Part shown: piece by piece, positions 9,051-59,780 of the stretch
Position numbering within the stretch: position 1 is the stretch's first letter
Layout: every line of letters starts with the position of its first letter
Source of the DNA: the human T2T-CHM13v2.0 reference genome, Homo sapiens
NCBI RefSeq assembly: GCF_009914755.1
Contig: NC_060937.1
Direction: 5' to 3' (one strand)
Length of the DNA: 64,000 nt
Notes under the pieces: generated by a model
Told to the model about the DNA's origin: nothing
Seen by the model: only the letters and a program-made list of their open reading frames with translations
Databases searched by the model: none
Made by a program: the position numbers and the translations under genes

Positions 9051-9439
<389 letters not shown>

Positions 9440-9909
9440 TCACATTCTTTCTACTATATCCTGTGCTTTTTCATGACCCTTTACTTATCTCCTCATATTC
9501 CTCAGACTAAGTCCCAGATATTCTAGCAATGACCTTTTATTCAGAAAAATTGTTATTTGGGAACATTATGAAATATTTCATAAATTTAACTATTTACAGT
9601 TACATACATACCTGGGCCTTCCCCTATAATTATTTTGTAATTCAACAGAATATGATATAGTAACCAGAGAATTTCCTTTGAATGTAGAGAAACCCAAAGG
9701 TAAAGATGAGCAAGCAGATAATTCATGGGTATACCTCACAAAAAGAGATGTCAGCCAAATTTATCATTTATGTCCTTTTTAATTGTCTGCTGGACATAAT
9801 TATGGTACAACTTTTAAAAGGCAATAAAGTGTACCCATTCTTTATCTCAAATACACTTTGCATTCATCCCAAAGCAAAGTGCAGTTCCAAAGAGTCTAAA
9901 AACTTGTAG

Positions 9910-10278
<369 letters not shown>

Positions 10279-11849
10279 TAGTTTTCCTTTATGAACTACA
10301 CCCTGCAAGAGAAGGAAGTTGCCTAATACTTATCCTACTCAGCATTCCTTCAAGGAACAAAAGACAAACTCTAATGAAAACTGATCCAATAAAGTTGGTA
10401 TGAGTGATTAACTTTGCACAAATGATCATATATGTATCAGGCATTTTCCAAGTGCTCTCAGCTAAACCATTTTAAGAGAGCTCTAACCCAGTAGTAGCAA
10501 GAACAAGGTGTAAGAAGAAATGGCAATGAAAGGCAGTTTCTTGTCGAAAGTCACCAAGAAATCATGAGTTTAGAAGTGGGTTCCTTACCATTCTGGATGG
10601 TTCTTGACTTGATGGGTAATAAACTGCCTGTGGTAGTCCAACAAGCAATGGCAATGTAAGTCAGAAAAATGGAAGTGCTGTTTTTGGAGAATTGTATTGC
10701 CAGCTTAATACAGAAAGTAGAAAAGCTCATGATGCTTATTTGTTGTAACCAGCAGAGTTGGGGAGTAGGAGCTTTTGCCCAACCTCCTCATCAGGGAAAA
10801 GCTTGAGGGGCAGAAGGCCACTATTTTACCAATGACTTGATCAGCACTGAACATCCATCAAGACTCCATGGTGCCCTGCCCTGCCACTGAATATCACAAT
10901 AATTCAGACAAGTCAGTGGGTGACAGAATCTCCCATGTAACTCAAATACCACTACTGATAGTTTGAATATGTATTCATAAACTTTCATATGCATTTTTCA
11001 TGGTATCCTTCTAACCTTCTGTGTAACTAAAACGGGTATGATTCCATTTTGCAGATAGGGTAACTGATGGTCAAAGAGTAACACAAAAGCACAAAAGTAA
11101 CTTACATTCAAGTAAAGGACTCTGTCTCTTTAAAATCTCAAATACAGCAACCTTTCTCCCCGCAGTATACTCAGGGATTCTTGGGCCAGCTTCCAAGCCT
11201 GCAAATCCTCGTTCTAGTACACGGCCAGGAGGAAAGAATTCCAGGGAAAGATCTAAATTACAAGAGAATCTGTGACATCTGCCTGGCAAAATATTATTTC
11301 TTCAAAAAGTCCATTTTTTCAGAAATGACATTGAAGGTCTAACAACTTGCCATCCTTCAAAACCTGATGAAATTTGCTGAGGGAGAGAGAGAAAAACAAG
11401 AGGTGAGGACAGAAAGAATAAGTAAAGGTTCCTGATTAAACTCTGTAGAACAACCAAGTAGGAGAATGAATACCAATGGTAAGTCACAGGCTCACAGGCT
11501 AAAAGTAAAAGCTGCCCAGGAAGAAAGAGAAAGTTCTGGAAGCAAAGAAATCTCAAGTTTCTCAGTGGGTAATGAAAATAACTGTGTCATTTTAGATCAC
11601 ACACCTTACAGAATAGAAAGAAAAAACTTATCTTAAGATACACTCAAGTTTTTTGACTATTTTCCTGAAACCAAGGCGATGGTACTCTGATACTCTGCTA
11701 GGATATAAATAAGATTTTGTTTTTTATGAACTGAGCCCCTGATTTTTTTTTTGTCTAATGGTACAGTGCACCTCAGGTTATAAGTAAAATTATATTCCTA
11801 TTCTTTTCCAGATGTTATTTTCCTCGTATTAACAAGCCATTGATGTTTA

Positions 11850-17886: not shown

Positions 17887-18193
17887 TTTTTTGTTTGTTT
17901 GTTTGTTTGTTTTTGAGATTGAGTCTTGCTCTGTCACCTAGGCTGGAGAGCAGTGGCGCGATTTTGGTTCACTGCAACATCGCCTCCCAGGTTCAAGAGG
18001 TTCTCCTGCCTCAGCCTCCTGAGTAGCTGGGACTACAGGCACCTGCCACAACGCCCAGGTAATTTTTGTATTTTTAGTAGAGATGGGCTTTCACCATGTT
18101 GGCCAGGCTGGTCTCGAACTCCCGACCTCAGGTGATCTGCCTGCCTCGGCCTTCCAAAGTGCTAAGATTACAGGCATGAGCCACCACAGCCAG
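17887..18193 (-). mobile_element. AluS
   Basis: (TTTG)n tail followed by a full antisense Alu. Confidence 0.96.
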
Positions 18194-18692
18194 ATGGTAA
18201 GTATTCTTTAGAGATTGCAAAACACTGCATTATTAATTAAAGATTAAGATACATAGATACTGGAAAGAGACAAATAGATTAAAGATAAATCGATTCAATG
18301 GATGTGGATCAGAATCCATAATGTTCTAACTTGAACTGTTGTTTTTCTGTATTCCGTAATCATAAAATTGAGGTTTTCTCTTAAGTCTACTTGCTAAGAT
18401 AAAGATATTTCCTATTAATATTAAAATTTATAATAGCTTCAAAAGACTTGTTTTAGAGCTTTAACGTGATGAGATTTGTTATAAGAAATGACATTTAATG
18501 GAATGTTTCTGGTAGAAAGCAGTGTTTTTTTCCCCAAAGCTGTGCACAGTGTTTGCCATCAGGGGTTGCTCTTCTGTCACACTTTGTGACACTCTCCTCA
18601 CAATTACCTGCTTGATCTAGTGATAATAAATCCCATCACCAAAAAACGATGCACAGCTACATTTATAAAAAGGAATACATTTGCAGGATCTC

Positions 18693-18920
18693 CAGTGGTC
18701 TGCAGACCACAGACCACAGGCTGACTATGGCCGCAGCTTGTTTTTGTAAGGAACGTTTTACTGGAGTGTACCCTCACCCATTCCTTCAGGATTTGTCTGT
18801 GGCTGCTTTGCGGCTGGGATCACAGCATTGAAGAGTTCCAACAGAACAACAGAACCACATGTTTCACAGAGCCACAGATATTTTCTAACCAGCATTTACA
18901 GAACAAGTGTGCCAATCCTC
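18693..18920. mobile_element. MER58A-like hAT-Charlie MITE
   Basis: cagtggtctgcagaccacagaccacagg...tgtttttgtaaggaacgttttactgga...tttacagaacaagtgtgccaatcc. Confidence 0.75.
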
Positions 18921-19640
18921 ACTCTAGACATTCATTGATTTCTCAATGTCTGTCATACACGCCTGTTACGTGATCCTCAGCTTTCAGCCCCCTCGCCCCT
19001 TAGATCTCACAGTCACCAAGCCTTCTAAGGGAAAGAATTTCAAGCGCCCCTCCATCTTCTTCATTTATTCGCTGGCTCAGTTCCTCTCTACCCTGCAATT
19101 GTTTCCTTTTTTGCCTCTCCTGCCTCATTTCTTCCCACTTGAAAATAATAATTTACTTTTCTGGAAATACCATTACCTGCTACTCTTGCTATAAACTGAC
19201 AAAGGTTCCCATTAGCCTTAAGAAAATGGTTAGAATCTTTATCCTGACAGAGGAGGCCTTGAAGAATCTGTTCCTGAGACCTTCATTTACAGAATCCTCT
19301 TACAGACAGCCCTCTGCCCAAGACTGCCTCTTCTACCACCTAAGTCCTGCCCACCCCTGCTTCAGGTTGCCCCATAATGCCTCACTGTCAGTCAGGCCTT
19401 TCACAGCCTCCTCCACCTGCAGGCACCACTGCTTCCTCCACACCCCTCAGCCATCACCACCTCTCATCTATACATGAAACGGAATATCCCCTTCCATTGG
19501 TGGATGCTGGGTTTGAGTTTCCCTTTCTACCTCTTCTACTAGAGTTAAGCTCACCAAAGCAAGAACTCTTTTATATCTCTTGACAGCCTCAAAACTTAGC
19601 CTAGTGCTTTGGGCAGAGTTAAGTTTAAAATATATTCTCA

Positions 19641-20018
<378 letters not shown>

Positions 20019-40775: not shown

Positions 40776-41098
40776 TTTTCTTTCTTTCTTTCTTTTTTTT
40801 TTTTTTTTGAGACAGAGTGCCCAGGCCTGAGTGCAGTGGCATGATCTCAGCTCACTGCAACCTCTGCCTCCTGGGTTCAAGCAATTCTGCCACAGGTAAT
40901 TCTTCTGCTGCAGCCTCTCAAGTAGCTGGGACTATAGGTGTGCATCACCACATCACTTGGCTAATTTTTTGCATTTTTAGTAGAGACAAGGTTTCACCAT
41001 GTTGGCCAGGCTGGCCTCGAACTCCTGACCTCAAGCAATCCACCCGCCTCAGCCTCCCAAAGTTCTGGGATTACAGCTGTGAGCCCCTGCACCCGGCC
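40776..41098 (-). mobile_element. AluS/J with small internal indels
   Basis: Antisense Alu with extra aattctgccacaggt in the right arm. Confidence 0.94.
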
Positions 41099-43179
41099 CT
41101 TAAGTGGGTTTACTTTTGACTAAAGATAACATTACTTATCCTTTAATTAAATCCAAAAGTGAGCAATGAAACAGTGAGCGGAGTTGTTAAAAAGATTTTC
41201 AGGTGTTCTGTTGAACCTGAATGCATTTCCATTTGAGCACTTGCATTTATCTCTGAAAACATAGCCACCAGTGAGCTTTAGAACATCTGCTATCAAAACC
41301 ATCAAAACTGAAAGCCTTTCTATTCCATCTCCTACAATTATATTGAAATGGATTGTTGACCATTATTTTCTATCTTCAACACATTTATTTTCATCAGCGA
41401 TTTCCCACCAGCACAGCAGTATGACATTTAATGGAATAGCTATTGTGAAATAATTATGTTTACCATTATAATTCTAGGTCTGCACTGATTTTAATCAAAC
41501 TATTCCAAATAGCTTTTTGATCATAGTTATTATATACAATTTAGAATAATCTGATCAGGTTGGAATAGCTTCTCCTAATTAAACAAGTGTGTACATAAAA
41601 GGTGTATATGAATGGCTGTTTACATTTTAAGGAATAAAAGAAAATCAGACTTACGAATGTCTTATTAAAATGAACAATAATTTGGATTGTGTTAAATCAG
41701 TTCTCTATAACATGTGTGCATTTAAGTATGTATATATATTATAGAAGTGTGTATATGTATCATAGAAGACTAAATATATGGTAAAGATTTCTATAGAGCA
41801 TAATATGTAAAGTAAGAGACTTATATAGAAATGGAAATTCAGAAGGTAAAATTTCCCAAGGAAAAATATTCATTCTAATATATCAATCATGATTTACTAA
41901 GTTGCAAATCTTTTTAAAACAGTCCCAACATTTTAGATCAATTGTTAACCGACAATTGGCTTACACGAGGTGGATTAATTAGTTACTAGCTTCATTTGTG
42001 CTTTCCAAAAGCATGTTTTAGCTTTTATTTGTCATACAACAGAGTTAAGCATGGGCTACCTTGTTTAGAATTCCCTCGTTGCTGCATGTGGAGGTTAATA
42101 CTCATGTCATGAGCACCAAAAGTCTGGTCAGTGTGCATGGGGAATGGACTATTAACATTGTTTCTTCCCTGCTGTTTCTTCTAGGAAAACTGACACGCTT
42201 CACTTTTCTTGATCTCTTTCTACAAAACACACAAATTAAGCAAATATCTGAACACACCAACAAACAAAAGCAATAAACAAACACTTCATTTTGTCATCTT
42301 TATTTTTATGTAGTGTTTATTACATTAAAACACATATGTTATATGTATGTCTTGAACAAGGCACTGGGCTAGACACTGAGTATTGAACAGACAAATAAGT
42401 TATAGTCCCTGCCTGTAAGAAGACTAAAATCTCTTCAGAAAAGTGCAGGTGTCATGCATTCTAATGAAGGACATGGTAGGAAAAAAGCCTGTGAGAGAGA
42501 AGTGTGTTCAGTCAGGCTCTAGGTTATTTCAGTCCTGTCTTTCATGGCTCCTTATTCTTCCCATTGCTTAGGAAAAAAAATCCCTAAGCAGTGTTGCTTG
42601 ACCAGACCTGTGTGCTTGTCCCCAATATGCTCAAGAGAATGATACAGGTACTTTTCTGCCCACCTTGAGATAATCAATTGTCCTGAATGGAAAATCAGTG
42701 CTATGATTGGCAGCCCCATACAGGCAAGCATGTATGTTATACCTCCACGGGAATCAGTAATGAAAGTAATGATGGGCATCAAATATTATGTAGCCTGTCT
42801 TAGCATTTGTGCCTTTGCACACAATAGAGTTAATATGAATCATTTTGGTGTAGAAATTGTGAGAACAAGGTCACTGTGTAAACTGACAAAGAGCTTTCCT
42901 CTCAAGTGACAAGTTGGACTAATTGCCTGGGGCCCCATGCTGAAACTCAACAATATAATGACCAGCGTGTTCCTTATAGTGACTGATATGGCATCTGAGA
43001 TGGAGGAATTCAAAATTGAGTATTTGTTCGTTATCATTTTACAAAGTAGCTTAAATTAAGGATTTTTTAATTAAACAACAAAAATCTCTGTTGATACAAA
43101 TGTTTCCTGGTCCCTTCTAGATTCTTAAACCAAACTTTTTCAATGTAGCCTCGGGCCAAATTTCTTTGAACTAAAAATC

Positions 43180-43294
43180 AGCCAGGTTCAGTGGCTCATG
43201 CCTATAATCCCAGCAATCTGGGAGGCCGAAGTAGAGGGATTGCTTGAGTCTAGGAGTTCAAGACCAGTCTGGGTAACATAGGGAGACCCCGTGT

Positions 43295-43337
<43 letters not shown>

Positions 43338-43915: not shown

Positions 43916-44229
<314 letters not shown>

Positions 44230-44730: not shown

Positions 44731-46025
44731 ACAACAACAAATCAACAGAAAATAATCAGCTCCAACACACCCACAGCATTGCTTAGAAAATGGGCTCCCT
44801 GATTCAAATGGCTTTAATTGCAAAAGGCACTATAGCAACCACAATGATCCTCTTGGAAGAGTTAGTTCTTCTAGGATCAACATAGGCAGCAAGCCTAGCT
44901 GTAAAGCAGCCCACAGATTAAATAAATTCTATGGGAAAAAAAAAAAAAAAACCTGAGACTGATAAAGTTAGTCCATAGGTTTGAACCATGAAATAATCCA
45001 AAGTAAGTATGACTGATCTGAATATGGAAATGTACTGTGTTCAGTTAGCAAAATAAAAGTGGCATATTCTTCTCCATGTTTATCTTAACTAGCTCATATG
45101 TATTTGATGTATGCCAGATAAAAAGAAAACAATGATCCAGAGCTATGCCCTGCCTCTCTCCCATACTTGGCTAATGGACCAGTCATGGAGTTTTTATCAA
45201 GACGGGGAGAAAACCTGGGACATTAGATTACTTAGTCGAACAATATTTACGAACTTTGTGACAGTGATAAGAGCCTGAAACTAGGCCATACTGCTCTTTA
45301 TATTTTAGAAACAGCAATGAGGTCACTTTTAAACTATGCTAAAGTTTGGCTACTAATGTGGTGTGGTTGCTTCATTATGCTCTTAAACAGCCACACCAGC
45401 CATTCCTTCAGCACTGTCTATTGGGCACTCTATAAAAATCCCAACTTTTGTTTTTCCAGTGATCACAATATATTCATGCTGAAGCAACCTCATTTCAGAC
45501 ATCTATCCCTCTTGGCAACCAAAACAAGATAACTGACAAGGATTAAAAGCCAAAATTTATGACTAAATAGTGTTTATTGACTTTGCACAACTAACTGCAA
45601 ACTTATCTCATAGAGATATACTCCGGACAAGCAAATAAAATTACTTGAGCAAAAGTATCTCGAAACTACACATAGTTGTCCAGGCTGTAGATTATTCCAT
45701 AATAAAATATATGCAACCAAGTTGTTTGGTCATATGCCTGATGTGTCCCAAATAAGTCTGGACTCTGGTAATTTTTAAACTTAGATGAGGAATCCCTACA
45801 AAGAAATGGACTTAAGCTTGGTGCAACCCAAGGAACTTGTTCTGGACTGTCAACACCTTGAATTTGTAGGTGAAACATACATCCTAGTTCTTGTTTACTT
45901 TCCAGGCATAATAATTAATAACTCCTCATTTTACTCTCAAAATGTCTTTGTTTGAATGAATTGTAGTCATGACACATCAGTACCCTTCAAGTCTGATAAC
46001 ACAAACCTTGTGAAATTTATAGATC

Positions 46026-46489
46026 TTGTACTATTGTGTTATTGTCTTTTAGGGCCATAAGTTAGATCACATCCTTCAAGTGGGTAAGGCTTTGTCTGAA
46101 AAGAATGATGGTCTCATTGCCAATCAATGAAAAGGATGAGCCTTGAGATAAAACATGGTGACACAGGAGGTGGGCCTCAGTCCAGGGTGATGGAGGAGAA
46201 AAGCGCTCAGCCTAGGACTGGGATTTCAGGTGGCCTCAGACACTGAAGTTCTGAGAAGTCCTTGTGAGGGAAAGTGGACCGTCCCAGCTGAAATCCCAGT
46301 CCTAGGCTGAGTACTTTTCTCCTCCATCGCCCTGGCCTGAGGCCCACCTCCTGTGTCACCATGTTTTATCTCGGGACTCATCCTTTTCATTGATTGGCAA
46401 TGAGACCATCATTCTTTTCAGACAAAGCCTTACCCACTTGAAGGATGTGATCTAACTTATGGCCCTAAGACAATAACACAATAGTACAA
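46026..46489. repeat. Long inverted repeat: arms 46026-46233 and 46284-46489, 50-nt spacer
   Basis: Base-by-base reverse-complement match; about 8 substitutions plus one 2-bp indel over ~206 bp; arms are not Alu or L1. Confidence 0.97.
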
Positions 46490-47099
46490 TTTCTATGACA
46501 GTCCAGAACAAGTTGCCTGGGAAACATGGAAAACAGTGCAGAGCTGGATCCTGCCATCCAAGGCCAGAGTGGCAACACAGGAGTGGCCCACAGGGAGAGG
46601 CAGTGTGGTGAGGTGTCAGTCCATCCAATGCCTCAGCCACCGAGGAGGCCCTCAGTGTCCTGAACAGGACAGAGGAGAGGACACCAGGTACTTCCTCCTG
46701 AACAGAAGGAGCTGGGCAAATTAAAGGGTGCTCATTTCTAGCAATAAATGTGCCATTAAGTGAAGCAAAGTTATTGTGCAACATGGGAGTTGTTCACAAA
46801 TTGTTAGCAGCTTACATAACTGATCACAACTGGTATTGTTTTCATACAGTAAAACCGTGTTTTAGTGTTTCAGTTCTTACTTTATAATTGCTTTGGGATC
46901 TATGATCAAATGTAAAAGCTATGAGTTTTCTGAGTACTGTGTGCTTTTTATTTATCACTATGCACATTTTAAAGCAAAAGTGGTTTGTATTGCCTAATAT
47001 GTAAAATTCCCTTTGATGGTCTTGCTACAAGTTCCATGTAAACAATGTATTCCAACATCCCTGTGGTCTTTTTTGAAGGCAGAGATGGTTGCCCTTGTC

Positions 47100-47500
<401 letters not shown>

Positions 47501-56509: not shown

Positions 56510-56800
56510 GGCCAGGCGCAGTGGCTCACACCTGTAATGCCAGCACTTTGGGAGGTCTAGCCAGGCAGATTGCCTGAGCTCAGTAGCTCGCGACCAGCCT
56601 GGGCAACAGGGTGAAACCCCGTCTCTACCAAAATACAAAAAATTAGCCATGCATGGCGGCATGCAACTGTAGTCCCAGCTACTCAGGAGCTTGAACCCAG
56701 GAGGTGGACGTTGCAGTGAGCCGAGATCGCACCACTGCACTCCAGCCTGGGCAACAGGGCGAGACTCAGTCTCAAAAAAATAATTAATTAATTTAATTTA
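56510..56800 (+). mobile_element. Alu with a short right-arm deletion
   Basis: ctactcaggag|cttgaaccc; TSD-like aatacattc on both sides. Confidence 0.94.
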
Positions 56801-58698
56801 ATACATTCCATTATTTGAAAAAAATCCACACTCATTGGTTATCTGGACTGGATTCTAAATTGGGAGATAGATGGTGAGCCTCTTTGTGATCACTGACCAG
56901 CGCGTACCTGGAATATACAATGTGTGCTGCAGTGCCGCACATGTATACACACAAACACACTTTTATACATATTAGGATATGCATACATTTGTCAGGGAGA
57001 CATAGAAAACTGCAACTTTTTATTAGTAATAGCCCACATTTATCTAGTACTTACTATGTGTTAAGCTATATGCTAAGTGCTTTACCTGCATGGGTCAAAA
57101 CAGAAATATCTAAGGCAGCATGTCATTAATTAAAGTAATATGAATAATTAAAATAATATCATTATTTTAAAATAACTATAATTGCTTTTTATATTTATTA
57201 AAATAATTATAAATAAATGTTTGGAACACTCATTGATATAAAATGGCCTCTCTTATGGCGAATTCTAAGAAACACTAGGTTCTTTGACTGCAAACAGGTG
57301 TTACTTAAAAAAAGAAAGGTTAAGTAAGTTTAAGGAAGGATAAGATAAAATAAGTCAACAGGCTTCTGTACCATAGCACTTCTTAAAGCCTTTATTATAC
57401 AACTACACACAGTACTGTGAGAGAGAGACAGAGACTGAAGACCCTGACATCACACTCATGCAAGGACACACGACATCTTAGAGCCCATCTCCGACCTGAT
57501 ATACACAGAGTACACCTTGGAAAACATTAATACAAAGACTCAAAGTGCAACCTCATGGAAGAGTCAGGTAGGTGGAAAATGCTCATAAAGGAGATTAGAT
57601 GTGACATTTGTTTGAAAGGAGACTTTCCACTTGACTGATTGGTGGGGAGGGGAAGCTGAAGTTGGGGGGAGTAATAGGGACAAAGGCACAGAGCCCAGAC
57701 AGGGCGACGAAGTCGAGGGACATCAGGCAGCAAGAGCAGCCCAGGGCAGAGCTCCGGAAGCCTTGTAAGGGGAGTTAACGAATTGGGTAATACAGGGAGC
57801 CCTACTTGGACATGATTGTTCCTTTAAACCATCTCTTCTTTCCTTTACTAGGGAGAATAGACAATCACAGGCCCCTGTTCTAAAGCCTCTACTTAGCTAT
57901 GACAGCACAGTTTTTATTCAAGAGAAGCTTGTCAACAAATTCGAAGACAAAAATCATTATATATTTATATATATGTATTAGAACCATGTATAGGAACCAG
58001 GATCTTTAGGGCATGTCTTAGAATGTGAGTTGAGGGGAAAATGCTACCCCAGTTGAAGCGGAGTAAGACAGTGGAAAGAGCATTGATCAGGGAACTGAGA
58101 AATTTTTCTGGTCTCAGTTCCACCAGCTCCATGACTGCAGTCAAGTCCCTTAGCATCTTTGAATCTCGACCTCAGAGATTATCAGTAAAGGCAGAGATGT
58201 GGCTGGACGATCTAAAATCTATGAAGCCCTAAATGTCTACATTCTCTAGAGTGGTTTCTGTGTATTTGTGTTTTTAGGTTTTTTTTTTTTCTTAAATAAC
58301 AGAAGTAAACATTGTGACATAGAGTGGGGATGATAATATCAACCTGACAGAGCTGATATAAGAGTTTAATATAAAAGACTAACAACATAAATGTAAATTG
58401 TTACATTATTTCTCTAAGGCATGGCCACTTTTGCAATGGGTTCTTCATGTGCCCACCATTCTCACTTACGTTATTCCAAGTCACACCTCTCACTCCATGC
58501 TTTGTGGTCGTTATTTGTCCTATGATTCCCGATTCTATTTGCCTCCTTTAAACATGACAAGCCAAGGAGTAAAAAGATAAGGAAGATAAGGACCAAAGGG
58601 TGAAGGCAGAGGTTTTTCTCATTTGAGCATCAGCCTGCTCATCTCATTCTCACACTCTTGCCTGGAATTCCTCAAAACATCTTTCTCTTGGTGTAGAC

Positions 58699-58907
58699 CA
58701 GTGGTTCTCAAATGCAGGTGATTTTGCCTGCCAGGGAATATTTGGCAATCTGGAGACATTTTTGGTTGTCAGCTAAGGGTCTAGGAGGTCTACTGGTATG
58801 TTGTAGATAGAGATCTGGGTGCTGCCAATCACCTTGCAAAGCATAGGACAGCCCCTACAATTAATCATCTAGCCCCAAATATCAGCAGAGCTGAGGCTGA
58901 GAAACTG
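58699..58907. mobile_element. MER20 hAT-Charlie MITE
   Basis: cagtggttctcaa...atttggcaatctggagacatttttggttgtca...aggacagcccctac...tgaggctgagaaactg. Confidence 0.88.
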
Positions 58908-59479
58908 GCCCAACTGAAGTAGGGAGTTTAGCAAAGAAAAGTATGTGTTGGGAATGCAAAGAAAATGGATACACTAGCAGTAGATAATGGGGTTATGAAG
59001 ATTACGCTTTTTTAAAGCACTTTTGCATTTTAACAGTTTTCAATGAACTTAGGTTACTTTTAATTTTTCCCCAGCTATCTGGTGGAGCAGAGGAAGAAAT
59101 GCTATTGGAAAACTTCATTGTGTTTGAGGTTTTATTATAGTACAAAGCCAAGAGACAGGTCAGCAGGGGGCTAACTTATTTTAAGTTCTTTTATTCTTTT
59201 ATACCATAATGAGGTATATGCCATGGAGAAATTGCTAAATCCTAATGGAAGTAGCAGCTGTGTGCCATGTTGATTATGTGATGCTGGGGGTATCCAGCGT
59301 ACCCCAAGTAAGACCCAAAGTACCCAAAGTAAGTGATGCCTGTTTTTTCTCACCTATCCTGGTAGGCTTCCATCATCTTCTTACGCCTTATTTTAAAAGC
59401 CCCCTACTCCCAAAACGAGAGTACTTAACATCTATACTAATGTCAAATCGTATGCTGAGGATGAGATACCTTCAGTTCC

Positions 59480-59780
59480 TTTTTGTTTGTTTGTTTTTTG
59501 AGACAGAGTTTCACTCTTGTTGTCCAGCTGGAGTGCAATGGTGGGATCTTGGCTCAATGCAACCTCCTCCTCCTGGGTTCAAGTGATTGTCCTGCCTTAG
59601 CCTCCAGAGTAGCTGGGATTACAGGCACCTGCCACCATGCCCGGCTAATTTTTTGTGTGTTTTTAGTAGAGACGGGATTTCACCATGTGGGCAAGGCTGG
59701 TCTCGAACTGCTGAGCTCAGGTGATCCACCTCAGCCTCCCAACGTACTAGGATTACAGGCATGAGCCACCATACCCGACC
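59480..59780 (-). mobile_element. AluS (Sq/Sp-like)
   Basis: gagtttcactcttgttg diagnostic; antisense full Alu. Confidence 0.95.

What the first reader, a model, noticed from the sequence alone, without database searches (positions are those of the whole stretch)
46026..46489. Non-Alu fold-back element: ~206-bp arms, ~95% identity, 50-nt loop
Seen: 46026-46233 is the reverse complement of 46284-46489, with about 8 substitutions and a 2-bp indel. The outer ~90 bp (from agggccataag to aaggatgag) match perfectly, and the differences cluster toward the loop. On a plus-strand RNA four differences become G-U wobbles and two are A-C pairs. I do not recognise the arms as any repeat family and see no TSD. 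Weak homology extends ~9 bp further out. Established: long, tightly spaced inverted repeats form hairpins or cruciforms, and when transcribed are substrates for ADAR, Dicer/Drosha and dsRNA sensors. Inference: a local inverted duplication, possibly maintained by arm-to-arm conversion. It is a candidate hairpin-RNA (endo-siRNA or proto-miRNA) locus or an undescribed fold-back element. This is the strongest unexplained signal in the window; function is unproven.
Basis: partly seen in the sequence, partly recalled or inferred. Interest (0 to 1): 0.8.

Follow-up and report, generated by a model that had tools for sequence, protein, structure and literature searches.

The report
Single-copy inverted duplication in FGF14 intron
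A real, near-perfect 215-bp hairpin-forming inverted repeat sits in an intron of the brain gene FGF14, but it looks like an old one-off local duplication decaying neutrally, not a mobile element or a proven RNA gene.

Summary
The arms are 46019-46233 and 46284-46496: 215 aligned columns, 10 substitutions, one 2-bp indel, 94.4% identity, with a 50-nt spacer. A further collinear pair, 45827-45852 / 46496-46521 (24 of 26), shows the duplication was longer. The left side carries 166 bp (45853-46018) that the right side lacks. Either strand folds into one long hairpin (RNA -409.8 / -402.2 kcal/mol, z = -41).

The arm occurs only twice in the 3.1-Gb assembly, namely as the two arms. An Alu control gave 5302 candidates. 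There is no target-site duplication, no Rfam family above threshold, and both flanks are single-copy.

Four of the 10 substitutions fall in three CpG dinucleotides. Wobble pairs show no bias towards either strand. The 92-bp perfect block is only weakly unusual (p 0.01-0.15).

Best reading: a locus-specific inverted duplication made by template switching or fold-back repair, roughly 15-30 Myr ago by recalled rates, and decaying neutrally. It is probably an intronic ADAR substrate in FGF14 pre-mRNA. Small-RNA or other function is untested. No primate genomes, Dfam or expression data were available.

The parts
45827..45852 (.). Outer left segment of the inverted duplication. It pairs with 46496-46521.
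   Evidence: 24 of 26 complementary, with mismatches at 45831 and 45833. Also recovered in the whole-genome search (E = 2.76 on its own). It is credible because it is collinear with the right arm and directly abuts it.
45853..46018 (.). 166-bp segment present only on the left side. It is either an insertion into the left arm, a deletion from the right arm, or a segment skipped during a multi-step template switch.
   Evidence: On the right side 46496 and 46497 are contiguous. There is no significant similarity to the arm. One isolated 60-bp, 82% match lies on contig C2.
46019..46233 (.). Left arm, 215 nt.
   Evidence: blastn against 46496-46284: 94.4% over 215 columns, 10 mismatches, 1 gap opening, E = 3e-75. 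Column-by-column list.
46234..46283 (.). 50-nt unpaired spacer, the hairpin loop. It contains a small local stem.
   Evidence: spacer sequence printed.
46284..46496 (.). Right arm, 213 nt. It lacks the 2 bp found at 46047-46048 in the left arm.
   Evidence: It is the only other place in the genome that matches the left arm.
46496..46521 (.). Outer right segment. It pairs with 45827-45852.

Best explanation
This is a locus-specific inverted duplication of unique intronic DNA. It is not a transposon and not a demonstrated RNA gene.

Proposed origin (inferred): during replication or break repair, a nascent 3' end switched template onto the complementary strand about 50 nt back. It copied about 240 nt in reverse orientation and then returned. 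The 166-bp asymmetry came either from a second jump during that event or from a later indel.

Since then the two arms have decayed by ordinary point mutation, with CpG transitions prominent. One short arm-to-arm conversion or re-homogenisation may have occurred in the middle of the arm. Arm divergence of about 4.7% suggests an age of very roughly 15-30 Myr. That uses recalled primate substitution rates and carries a wide Poisson error.

Likely consequences (inferred, not shown): the window lies inside the FGF14 gene span, with the gene on the minus strand. Any primary transcript that covers this intron will therefore contain a ~215-bp, ~95% paired hairpin. The most likely fate is promiscuous A-to-I editing by nuclear ADARs, followed by degradation with the intron. 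At the DNA level it is a potential hairpin or cruciform former that has evidently been tolerated.
For: 1. Structure. The arms, the spacer and the outer collinear pair are described. The RNA fold is -409.8 (plus strand) and -402.2 (minus strand) kcal/mol, against -144.5 +/- 6.4 for shuffles. The DNA fold is -250.8, z = -38.

2. Single locus. The left-arm query found 2 places in 3.1 Gb, both of them the arms. A 559-bp query at E <= 10 raised only 2 first-look candidates. A 30-mer with up to 3 mismatches hit 1 forward and 1 reverse site, with 0/0 for the reversed-pattern control. The same tool gave 5302 candidates, with scored hits at 80-86% identity, for the neighbouring Alu-like segment. Both flanks are single-copy.

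3. No transposon hallmarks. There is no target-site duplication at 45826/46522 or at 46018/46497. There are no direct repeats in 45780-46560.

4. Neutral-looking decay. Of 10 substitutions, 6 are transitions and 4 fall in three CpG dinucleotides, each CpG intact in only one arm. Transition differences give 4 G-U on the plus strand and 2 on the minus strand, so pairing is not preserved on the transcribed strand.

5. Not an assembly fold-back artefact. The arms differ at 10 sites plus an indel.

6. Mechanistic precedent. Template switching creates hairpins de novo in primates (PMC10710096, passages read). Fold-back repair leaves a spacer between inverted copies (PMC3907307, passages read).
Against: - No outgroup genome was available. 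The ancestral single-copy state, the identity of the source arm and the age are therefore all inferred.
- Known short template-switch events are tens of bases: the detection criteria were at least 15 nt, with new hairpin stems of 30-55. The fold-back duplications are megabase-scale with 766-70,466-bp spacers. This event, with ~240-nt arms and a 50-nt spacer, lies between the two documented size classes.
- No junction microhomology can be recognised at the arm/spacer boundary.
- Dfam/RepeatMasker could not be run. The duplicated sequence could itself be a very old, highly diverged repeat fragment that the genome search cannot see.
- The 92-bp perfect block is mildly improbable under uniform decay (p = 0.014-0.15).
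- Transcription and editing were not tested.
Confidence: 0.7

Rival explanations
1. The inverted duplication is much older than its 4.7% arm divergence suggests. Recurrent arm-to-arm gene conversion or template-switch homogenisation keeps the arms similar, as in the large sex-chromosome palindromes (recalled).
For: There is a perfect 92-bp block flanked on both sides by differences. A run of at least 92 has p = 0.021 with 11 independent events in 215 columns and p = 0.014 with 14 events in 241 columns. Template switching between imperfect inverted-repeat arms can homogenise and expand them (PMC13100816; abstract start seen in the listing only).
Against: When adjacent differences count as single events, the p-value rises to 0.08-0.15. 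All three CpG dinucleotides survive in only one arm, and the arms differ by a 2-bp and a 166-bp indel, so homogenisation is at best local. No comparative data are available.
Confidence: 0.12
2. It is a functional hairpin-RNA gene. The long stem would be processed into endo-siRNAs or a young miRNA, or would act as a regulated ADAR or dsRNA-sensor ligand in FGF14-expressing neurons.
For: The hairpin is extremely stable on both strands. It lies inside a transcribed gene span (hub annotation). The apical part has sub-threshold Rfam matches to miRNA precursor models: mir-3622 at 41.1 and 39.7 bits on the two strands.
Against: - The mir-3622 score is about half the gathering score of 78, and most of it comes from generic hairpin pairing (alignment).
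- The arm query found no other locus in the genome.
- The hub's RefSeq table lists no miRNA gene in the window.
- On the FGF14 sense strand only 2 of 6 transition differences are G-U, so pairing is not preserved.
- A 215-bp uninterrupted stem lacks the ~35-bp stem geometry preferred for pri-miRNAs (PMC10710096, passage).
- Long near-perfect dsRNAs in human transcripts are generally weakly expressed and selected against, not used (PMC7006430, passages).
Confidence: 0.07
3. It is a single surviving copy of a fold-back or MITE-like DNA transposon with long terminal inverted repeats, or a very old palindromic MER-type element.
For: The long inverted arms with a short internal loop fit the architecture of fold-back and MITE elements. 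Dfam could not be queried. Old families diverged by more than about 30% would escape the genome search.
Against: A young element (arms 94% alike) should have other similar copies, and none exist (the tool's sensitivity to ~80% identical repeats is shown). An old element would have arms that had diverged far more than 5.6%. There is no target-site duplication at either boundary.
Confidence: 0.06
4. It is an assembly or sequencing artefact, a chimeric fold-back, in T2T-CHM13.
For: Fold-back chimeras are a known read-level artefact (recalled).
Against: The arms differ by 10 substitutions, a 2-bp indel and a 166-bp asymmetry. A fold-back chimera would give identical arms.
Confidence: 0.01

Closest known systems
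Template-switch mutations that create hairpins de novo (Loytynoja and colleagues; PMC10710096, passages read)
   Same: An inverted copy of adjacent unique sequence appears at one locus and instantly creates a near-perfect stem-loop in transcribed DNA. No transposon is involved.
   Different: Documented events are short (detected at 15 nt or more; new stems 30-55 nt). This one has arms of about 215-240 nt. The ancestral state could not be checked here.
Fold-back inverted duplications with a single-copy spacer (Hermetz et al. 2014, PMC3907307, passages read)
   Same: The architecture is copy, spacer, inverted copy. The spacer is interpreted as the fold-back loop.
   Different: Those are megabase-scale pathogenic rearrangements next to terminal deletions, with spacers of 766-70,466 bp and 2-8 bp of junction microhomology. 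This is a ~0.7-kb interstitial, fixed-looking event with a 50-nt spacer and no recognisable microhomology.
Long, nearly perfect intramolecular dsRNAs of human pre-mRNAs (Barak et al. 2020, PMC7006430; dsRNAscan preprint PMC11838218)
   Same: It is an intronic inverted duplicated sequence predicted to form a long duplex, the class expected to be ADAR substrates. Its predicted energy (-410 kcal/mol) equals the median the preprint reports for edited repetitive dsRNAs.
   Different: It falls below the 'long and nearly perfect' cut-offs used there (over 300 bp and over 96%). In the preprint, over 90% of predicted dsRNAs involve repeats, mostly Alu pairs for the edited ones. This one is built from single-copy sequence with a 50-nt loop. 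FGF14 occurs in neither main text and not in Barak's three supplementary files. The preprint's supplements are closed, so the locus may be listed there.
hpRNA / endo-siRNA hairpin loci of Drosophila and mouse oocytes, and plant proto-miRNAs from inverted duplications (recalled, not read here)
   Same: A long inverted duplication gives a hairpin transcript.
   Different: Those are defined by Dicer-dependent small RNAs and usually by a target gene homologous to the arms. Here no small-RNA data exist, and no other genomic sequence is homologous to the arms.
Palindromic MITE-derived hairpins such as MADE1 and MER53 (recalled)
   Same: Palindromic DNA that folds into a hairpin on either strand.
   Different: Those are multi-copy families with target-site duplications. 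This is single-copy and has none.

Membership tests
Fold-back / MITE-type DNA transposon | Multiple dispersed copies in the genome | tested here: not met
   Only the two arms match in 3.1 Gb. A 30-mer with up to 3 mismatches hits 1 forward and 1 reverse site, control 0/0. An Alu control with the same tool gave 5302 candidates.
Fold-back / MITE-type DNA transposon | Target-site duplication flanking the terminal inverted repeats | tested here: not met
   The flanks printed show no direct repeat at 45826/46522 or at 46018/46497. One search found 0 direct-repeat families in 45780-46560.
Fold-back / MITE-type DNA transposon | Match to a curated repeat consensus (Dfam/Repbase) | not testable with these tools
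miRNA precursor (Rfam mir-3622 or any other family) | Covariance-model score at or above the family's gathering score | tested here: not met
   The best match is mir-3622, at 41.1 bits (minus strand) and 39.7 bits (plus strand), against a gathering score of 78. All other matches score 21 bits or less.
hpRNA / endo-siRNA locus | Long inverted-repeat hairpin in a transcript | tested here: inconclusive
   The hairpin is certain. Transcription is inferred only from its position inside the FGF14 gene span (hub table) and was not measured.
hpRNA / endo-siRNA locus | Dicer-dependent 21-23-nt small RNAs from both arms | not testable with these tools
   No small-RNA data are available.
Template-switch / fold-back inverted duplication | An inverted copy lying next to its single-copy source, separated by a short spacer | tested here: met
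Template-switch / fold-back inverted duplication | Ancestral state with only one arm in outgroup genomes | not testable with these tools
   No primate or other vertebrate genome is held.
Template-switch / fold-back inverted duplication | Microhomology at the switch junctions | tested here: inconclusive
   None is recognisable at 46233/46284 or at the outer ends. With about 5% later divergence the original junctions cannot be placed to the base.
'Long and nearly perfect' MDA5-class dsRNA (over 300 bp, over 96%; PMC7006430, PMC11838218) | Stem over 300 bp and over 96% identity or pairing | tested here: not met
   215 columns at 94.4%. Not found among the chr13 entries or under FGF14 in Barak's supplementary files.
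Palindromic AT-rich repeat (PATRR; recalled definition) | AT-rich, nearly spacer-free palindrome | tested here: not met
   The arm GC content is 44.7%, against 37.8% for the window, and the spacer is 50 nt.

The most novel reading that the evidence does not exclude
A catarrhine- or hominoid-specific hairpin, born by template switching in the long FGF14 intron, has biological activity in cerebellar neurons. It could act as RNA, giving a hyper-edited dsRNA or small RNAs that affect FGF14 pre-mRNA processing. It could act as DNA, as a hairpin or cruciform fork barrier about 23 kb from the pure (GAA)81 tract that is probably the SCA27B repeat, and so influence replication through that repeat.
Probability: 0.04. 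Interest if true: 0.65.

Novelty: new member of a known kind. Interest (0 to 1): 0.2.

Why it matters
As it stands this is a clean example of how unique DNA can become a long hairpin in one mutational step, at a size between the two documented classes of inverted duplication. That is useful for catalogues of non-B DNA and of non-repeat dsRNA, and as a likely non-Alu ADAR substrate in a neuronal gene. It would matter more if it proved to be processed into small RNAs, or if it affected stability or replication of the nearby FGF14 GAA tract. Nothing found here supports either idea.

Tried and rejected
- **Repeat family.** The whole-genome searches with the arm and with a 30-mer allowing 3 mismatches found only the two arms. 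The positive control worked.
- **Known RNA family.** Rfam at E <= 1 over 3.5 kb and over 521 bp gave only sub-threshold miRNA-model matches, which come from generic pairing.
- **Larger palindrome or complex rearrangement.** blastn of 6 kb on the left against 6 kb on the right found, apart from the arms and the 26-nt outer pair, only Alu-type matches that are not centred on the hairpin.
- **Arms related to their own flanks or to the 166-bp segment.** Local alignments did not exceed 100 shuffles in any of 6 comparisons. A resemblance I thought I saw by eye to the GC-rich right flank was therefore chance.
- **Short nested repeats or a target-site duplication.** None were found.
- **The 166-bp segment as a repeat.** It has one isolated 60-bp, 82% match on C2 with nothing around it. 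This is left unexplained.
- **Selection for pairing.** G-U against A-C counts show no strand bias.
- **Literature.** A search for FGF14 + 'inverted repeat' + intron found 7 papers, of which the 6 listed are not about this structure. A search for FGF14 + A-to-I, hairpin or dsRNA listed nothing relevant among its 12 rows.
- **Not possible here.** Primate alignments, Dfam, RNA-seq, small-RNA-seq, editing databases and population haplotypes.

Full report
**1. Is it there?**

Yes. The sequence and the repeat finder show three collinear inverted pairs around one centre:
- 46049-46233 / 46284-46468: 185 nt, 96% complementary.
- 46019-46048 / 46467-46496: 30 nt, 93%.
- 45827-45852 / 46496-46521: 26 nt, 92%.

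A gapped blastn of the left 6 kb against the right 6 kb joins the first two pairs into one alignment, 46019-46233 against 46496-46284. It has 215 columns, 10 mismatches, one gap opening, 94.4% identity and E = 3e-75.

- 8 substitutions inside 46026-46233, at 46141, 46143, 46144, 46181, 46188, 46204, 46205 and 46230.
- A 2-bp indel at 46047-46048.
- A perfect 92-bp block, 46049-46140.
- A 50-nt spacer, 46234-46283.

The structure is far beyond chance:
- RNA minimum free energy is -409.8 kcal/mol, against -144.5 +/- 6.4 for 100 dinucleotide shuffles. That is z = -41.5, with 0 shuffles as good.
- The minus strand, which is the FGF14 sense strand, folds at -402.2.
- As single-stranded DNA it folds at -250.8, z = -38.
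- It is the strongest of the 9 inverted pairs of at least 40 nt within 3 kb in the window. The other 8 are 65-141 nt at 74-82%, and they sit at Alu-sized stretches that the hub lists as masked.

**2.

The third pair directly abuts the right arm, sharing base 46496, but lies 166 bp beyond the left arm. The duplication was therefore at least about 240 nt per arm. The left side carries a 166-bp segment, 45853-46018, with no counterpart on the right.

There are also differences outside the perfect block: 46024, 46025, the 2-bp indel, and 45831 and 45833. The perfect block is therefore internal. 'Differences cluster toward the loop' is only half the picture.

A simulation gives the probability of a perfect run of at least 92 bp:
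- 0.021 for 11 independent events in 215 columns, rising to 0.15 if adjacent differences are merged into 7 events.
- 0.014 (14 events), 0.080 (10 events) and 0.12 (9 events) over 241 columns.

This is a weak hint of one local homogenisation event and nothing more.

**3. Is it a repeat family?**

Within the reach of the tools, no.
- The left arm finds exactly two places in the 3.1-Gb assembly, and they are the two arms.
- A 559-bp query at E <= 10 raised only two first-look candidates. It returned itself, the right arm, the 26-nt outer pair and one isolated 60-bp, 82% match on C2 that falls in the 166-bp segment.
- A 30-mer from the perfect block with up to 3 mismatches hits once on each strand, and the reversed-pattern control hits 0/0.
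- As a positive control, the neighbouring Alu-like segment 47189-47420 raised 5302 candidates. The 40 that were scored gave 42 matches including the query's own place, and 39 of these are long matches elsewhere at 81-86% identity. The tool therefore does see families at about 80% identity.
- Both flanks, 45100-45826 and 46522-47180, are single-copy by the same test.

The logic holds even without Dfam. A young palindromic element with arms 94% alike would have similar copies elsewhere, and there are none. An old element would have arms that had diverged much more than 5.6%. Either way, the similarity of the two arms needs a local duplication.

There is no target-site duplication at either candidate boundary. 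There are no short direct repeats in 45780-46560. The arm has no detectable similarity to its flanks or to the 166-bp segment: 6 comparisons, none above 100 shuffles.

**4. Is it a known RNA?**

Rfam at E <= 1 gives only sub-threshold miRNA-precursor matches centred on the loop. The best is mir-3622, at 41.1 bits on the minus strand and 39.7 on the plus strand, against a gathering score of 78. The others score 21 bits or less. The alignment shows that the score comes mostly from perfect pairing, with 38-50 loop positions inserted into the model. The arm query did not retrieve any other locus in the genome. I reject membership. The hub's RefSeq table lists no miRNA gene in the window.

**5. How do the arms differ?**

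- Six of the 10 substitutions are transitions.
- Four of the 10 fall in three CpG dinucleotides, at columns 46144, 46188 and 46204/46205. Each of these CpGs is intact in only one arm. The left arm has 1 CpG and the right arm has 2.
- Each transition gives G-U on one strand and A-C on the other. The split is 4 to 2 in favour of the plus strand, which is not the FGF14 sense strand.

There is thus no sign that pairing is being preserved in the transcript. The spectrum is what neutral decay of two copies would give.

Ten substitutions in about 213 aligned bases is 4.7%. By recalled primate divergences this lies between human-orangutan and human-macaque, so very roughly 15-30 Myr. The Poisson interval spans at least a factor of two each way, and the estimate would be too young if conversion has occurred. 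This is inference, not measurement, because no other vertebrate genome was available.

**6. Mechanism**

The architecture is a source, a 50-nt single-copy spacer and an inverted copy, all at one locus. That matches template switching of a nascent strand onto the complementary strand, or fold-back priming of a resected end.

Both processes are documented in humans at other scales:
- Short template-switch mutations create new hairpins in primate genomes. Detection there required at least 15 nt, and new stems were 30-55 nt (PMC10710096, passages read).
- Megabase fold-back inverted duplications leave spacers of 766-70,466 bp and 2-8 bp of junction microhomology (PMC3907307, passages read).

The present event sits between these sizes. 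The 166-bp asymmetry could be a second jump during the same event or a later indel. I cannot recognise junction microhomology, and after about 5% divergence that test is inconclusive.

The 10 substitutions, the 2-bp indel and the 166-bp asymmetry rule out a chimeric-read assembly artefact.

**7. Likely consequences (inferred)**

The window lies within the FGF14 span, with the gene on the minus strand and no exon of the selected transcript present (hub table). By recall only, the long 1b-type isoforms transcribe through this region. I did not test this.

A transcript covering the region would carry a ~215-bp duplex with 64 and 58 adenosines in its two arms. That is a good ADAR substrate.

The structure falls short of the 'long and nearly perfect' class (over 300 bp, over 96%) that two surveys single out as potential MDA5 ligands:
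- One found 197 such structures in human RefSeq transcripts (PMC7006430, passages).
- The other found 2,018 among 5.13 million predicted dsRNAs (PMC11838218, section 10 read).

It is also intronic, so it should not reach the cytoplasm.

FGF14 does not occur in the main text of either paper or in the three supplementary files of PMC7006430. The supplements of the bioRxiv preprint are closed, so the locus may well be listed there as one of about 0.5 million 'non-repetitive' predicted dsRNAs.

A 215-bp uninterrupted stem is not the geometry preferred for pri-miRNA processing, which is about a 35-bp stem (passage). By recall, somatic mammalian Dicer handles long dsRNA poorly. I therefore rate a small-RNA function as unlikely but untested.

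**8. Surroundings**

- GC content rises to 0.46-0.54 across 46125-46750, against 0.38 for the window.
- Ten kilobases fetched beyond the window end contain a pure (GAA)81 tract at L008 5550-5792. That is window-equivalent 69550-69792, about 23 kb from the right arm.
- By position in FGF14 and by recall, this is the repeat whose expansion causes the FGF14 GAA ataxia. Papers on that ataxia appear in the reference list seen.
- I found no evidence of any link between the hairpin and the GAA tract.

**9. Verdict**

This is a real, striking but ordinary kind of structure: a single-copy inverted duplication of intronic DNA, most likely a neutral relic of one replication or repair accident in the primate lineage. 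'Fold-back element' is not supported. 'Hairpin-RNA locus' remains an untested possibility with nothing in the sequence to favour it.

Noticed in passing
L008:5550-5792 (G000:C13:101377550-101377792; window-equivalent 69550-69792, outside the window): A pure (GAA)81 tract with 100% matches lies about 23 kb beyond the right arm. By position in FGF14 and by recall, it is probably the intronic GAA repeat whose expansion causes FGF14-related ataxia (SCA27B). At 81 units it would be well below the pathogenic range, by recall.
   Followed up: partly
window 45888-45947: Part of the 166-bp left-only segment has one isolated 60-bp, 82% match on another chromosome (G000:C2:65743819-65743878, minus strand; E = 2e-5) with no homology around it. 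It could be an ancient repeat fragment or chance in AT-rich sequence.
   Followed up: partly
window 46195-46322, both strands: Sub-threshold Rfam matches to the mir-3622 model (41.1 and 39.7 bits, gathering score 78) sit on the apical part of the hairpin. The model is matched about equally well on both strands, as this palindrome would be.
   Followed up: yes
window 47189-47420: An Alu-like element: a Metazoa_SRP sub-threshold match at 44.4 bits, and 5302 first-look candidates genome-wide. It pairs in inverted orientation with the Alu-like stretch at 43936-44107 (74%), about 3.1 kb away. That forms a second, weaker potential duplex enclosing the hairpin.
   Followed up: partly
window 9077-10295, 17983-19923, 40980-43298, 56625-59666: Several inverted Alu-sized pairs (65-141 nt segments, 74-82% complementary, 0.6-2.9 kb apart). 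These are ordinary inverted-Alu duplex candidates in the same intron.
   Followed up: no
window 43296-43335: A perfect (CA)20 microsatellite.
   Followed up: no
window 46500-46750: A GC-rich (0.54), purine-skewed single-copy stretch lies immediately right of the palindrome. It shows no similarity to the arms and no other genomic copy.
   Followed up: partly
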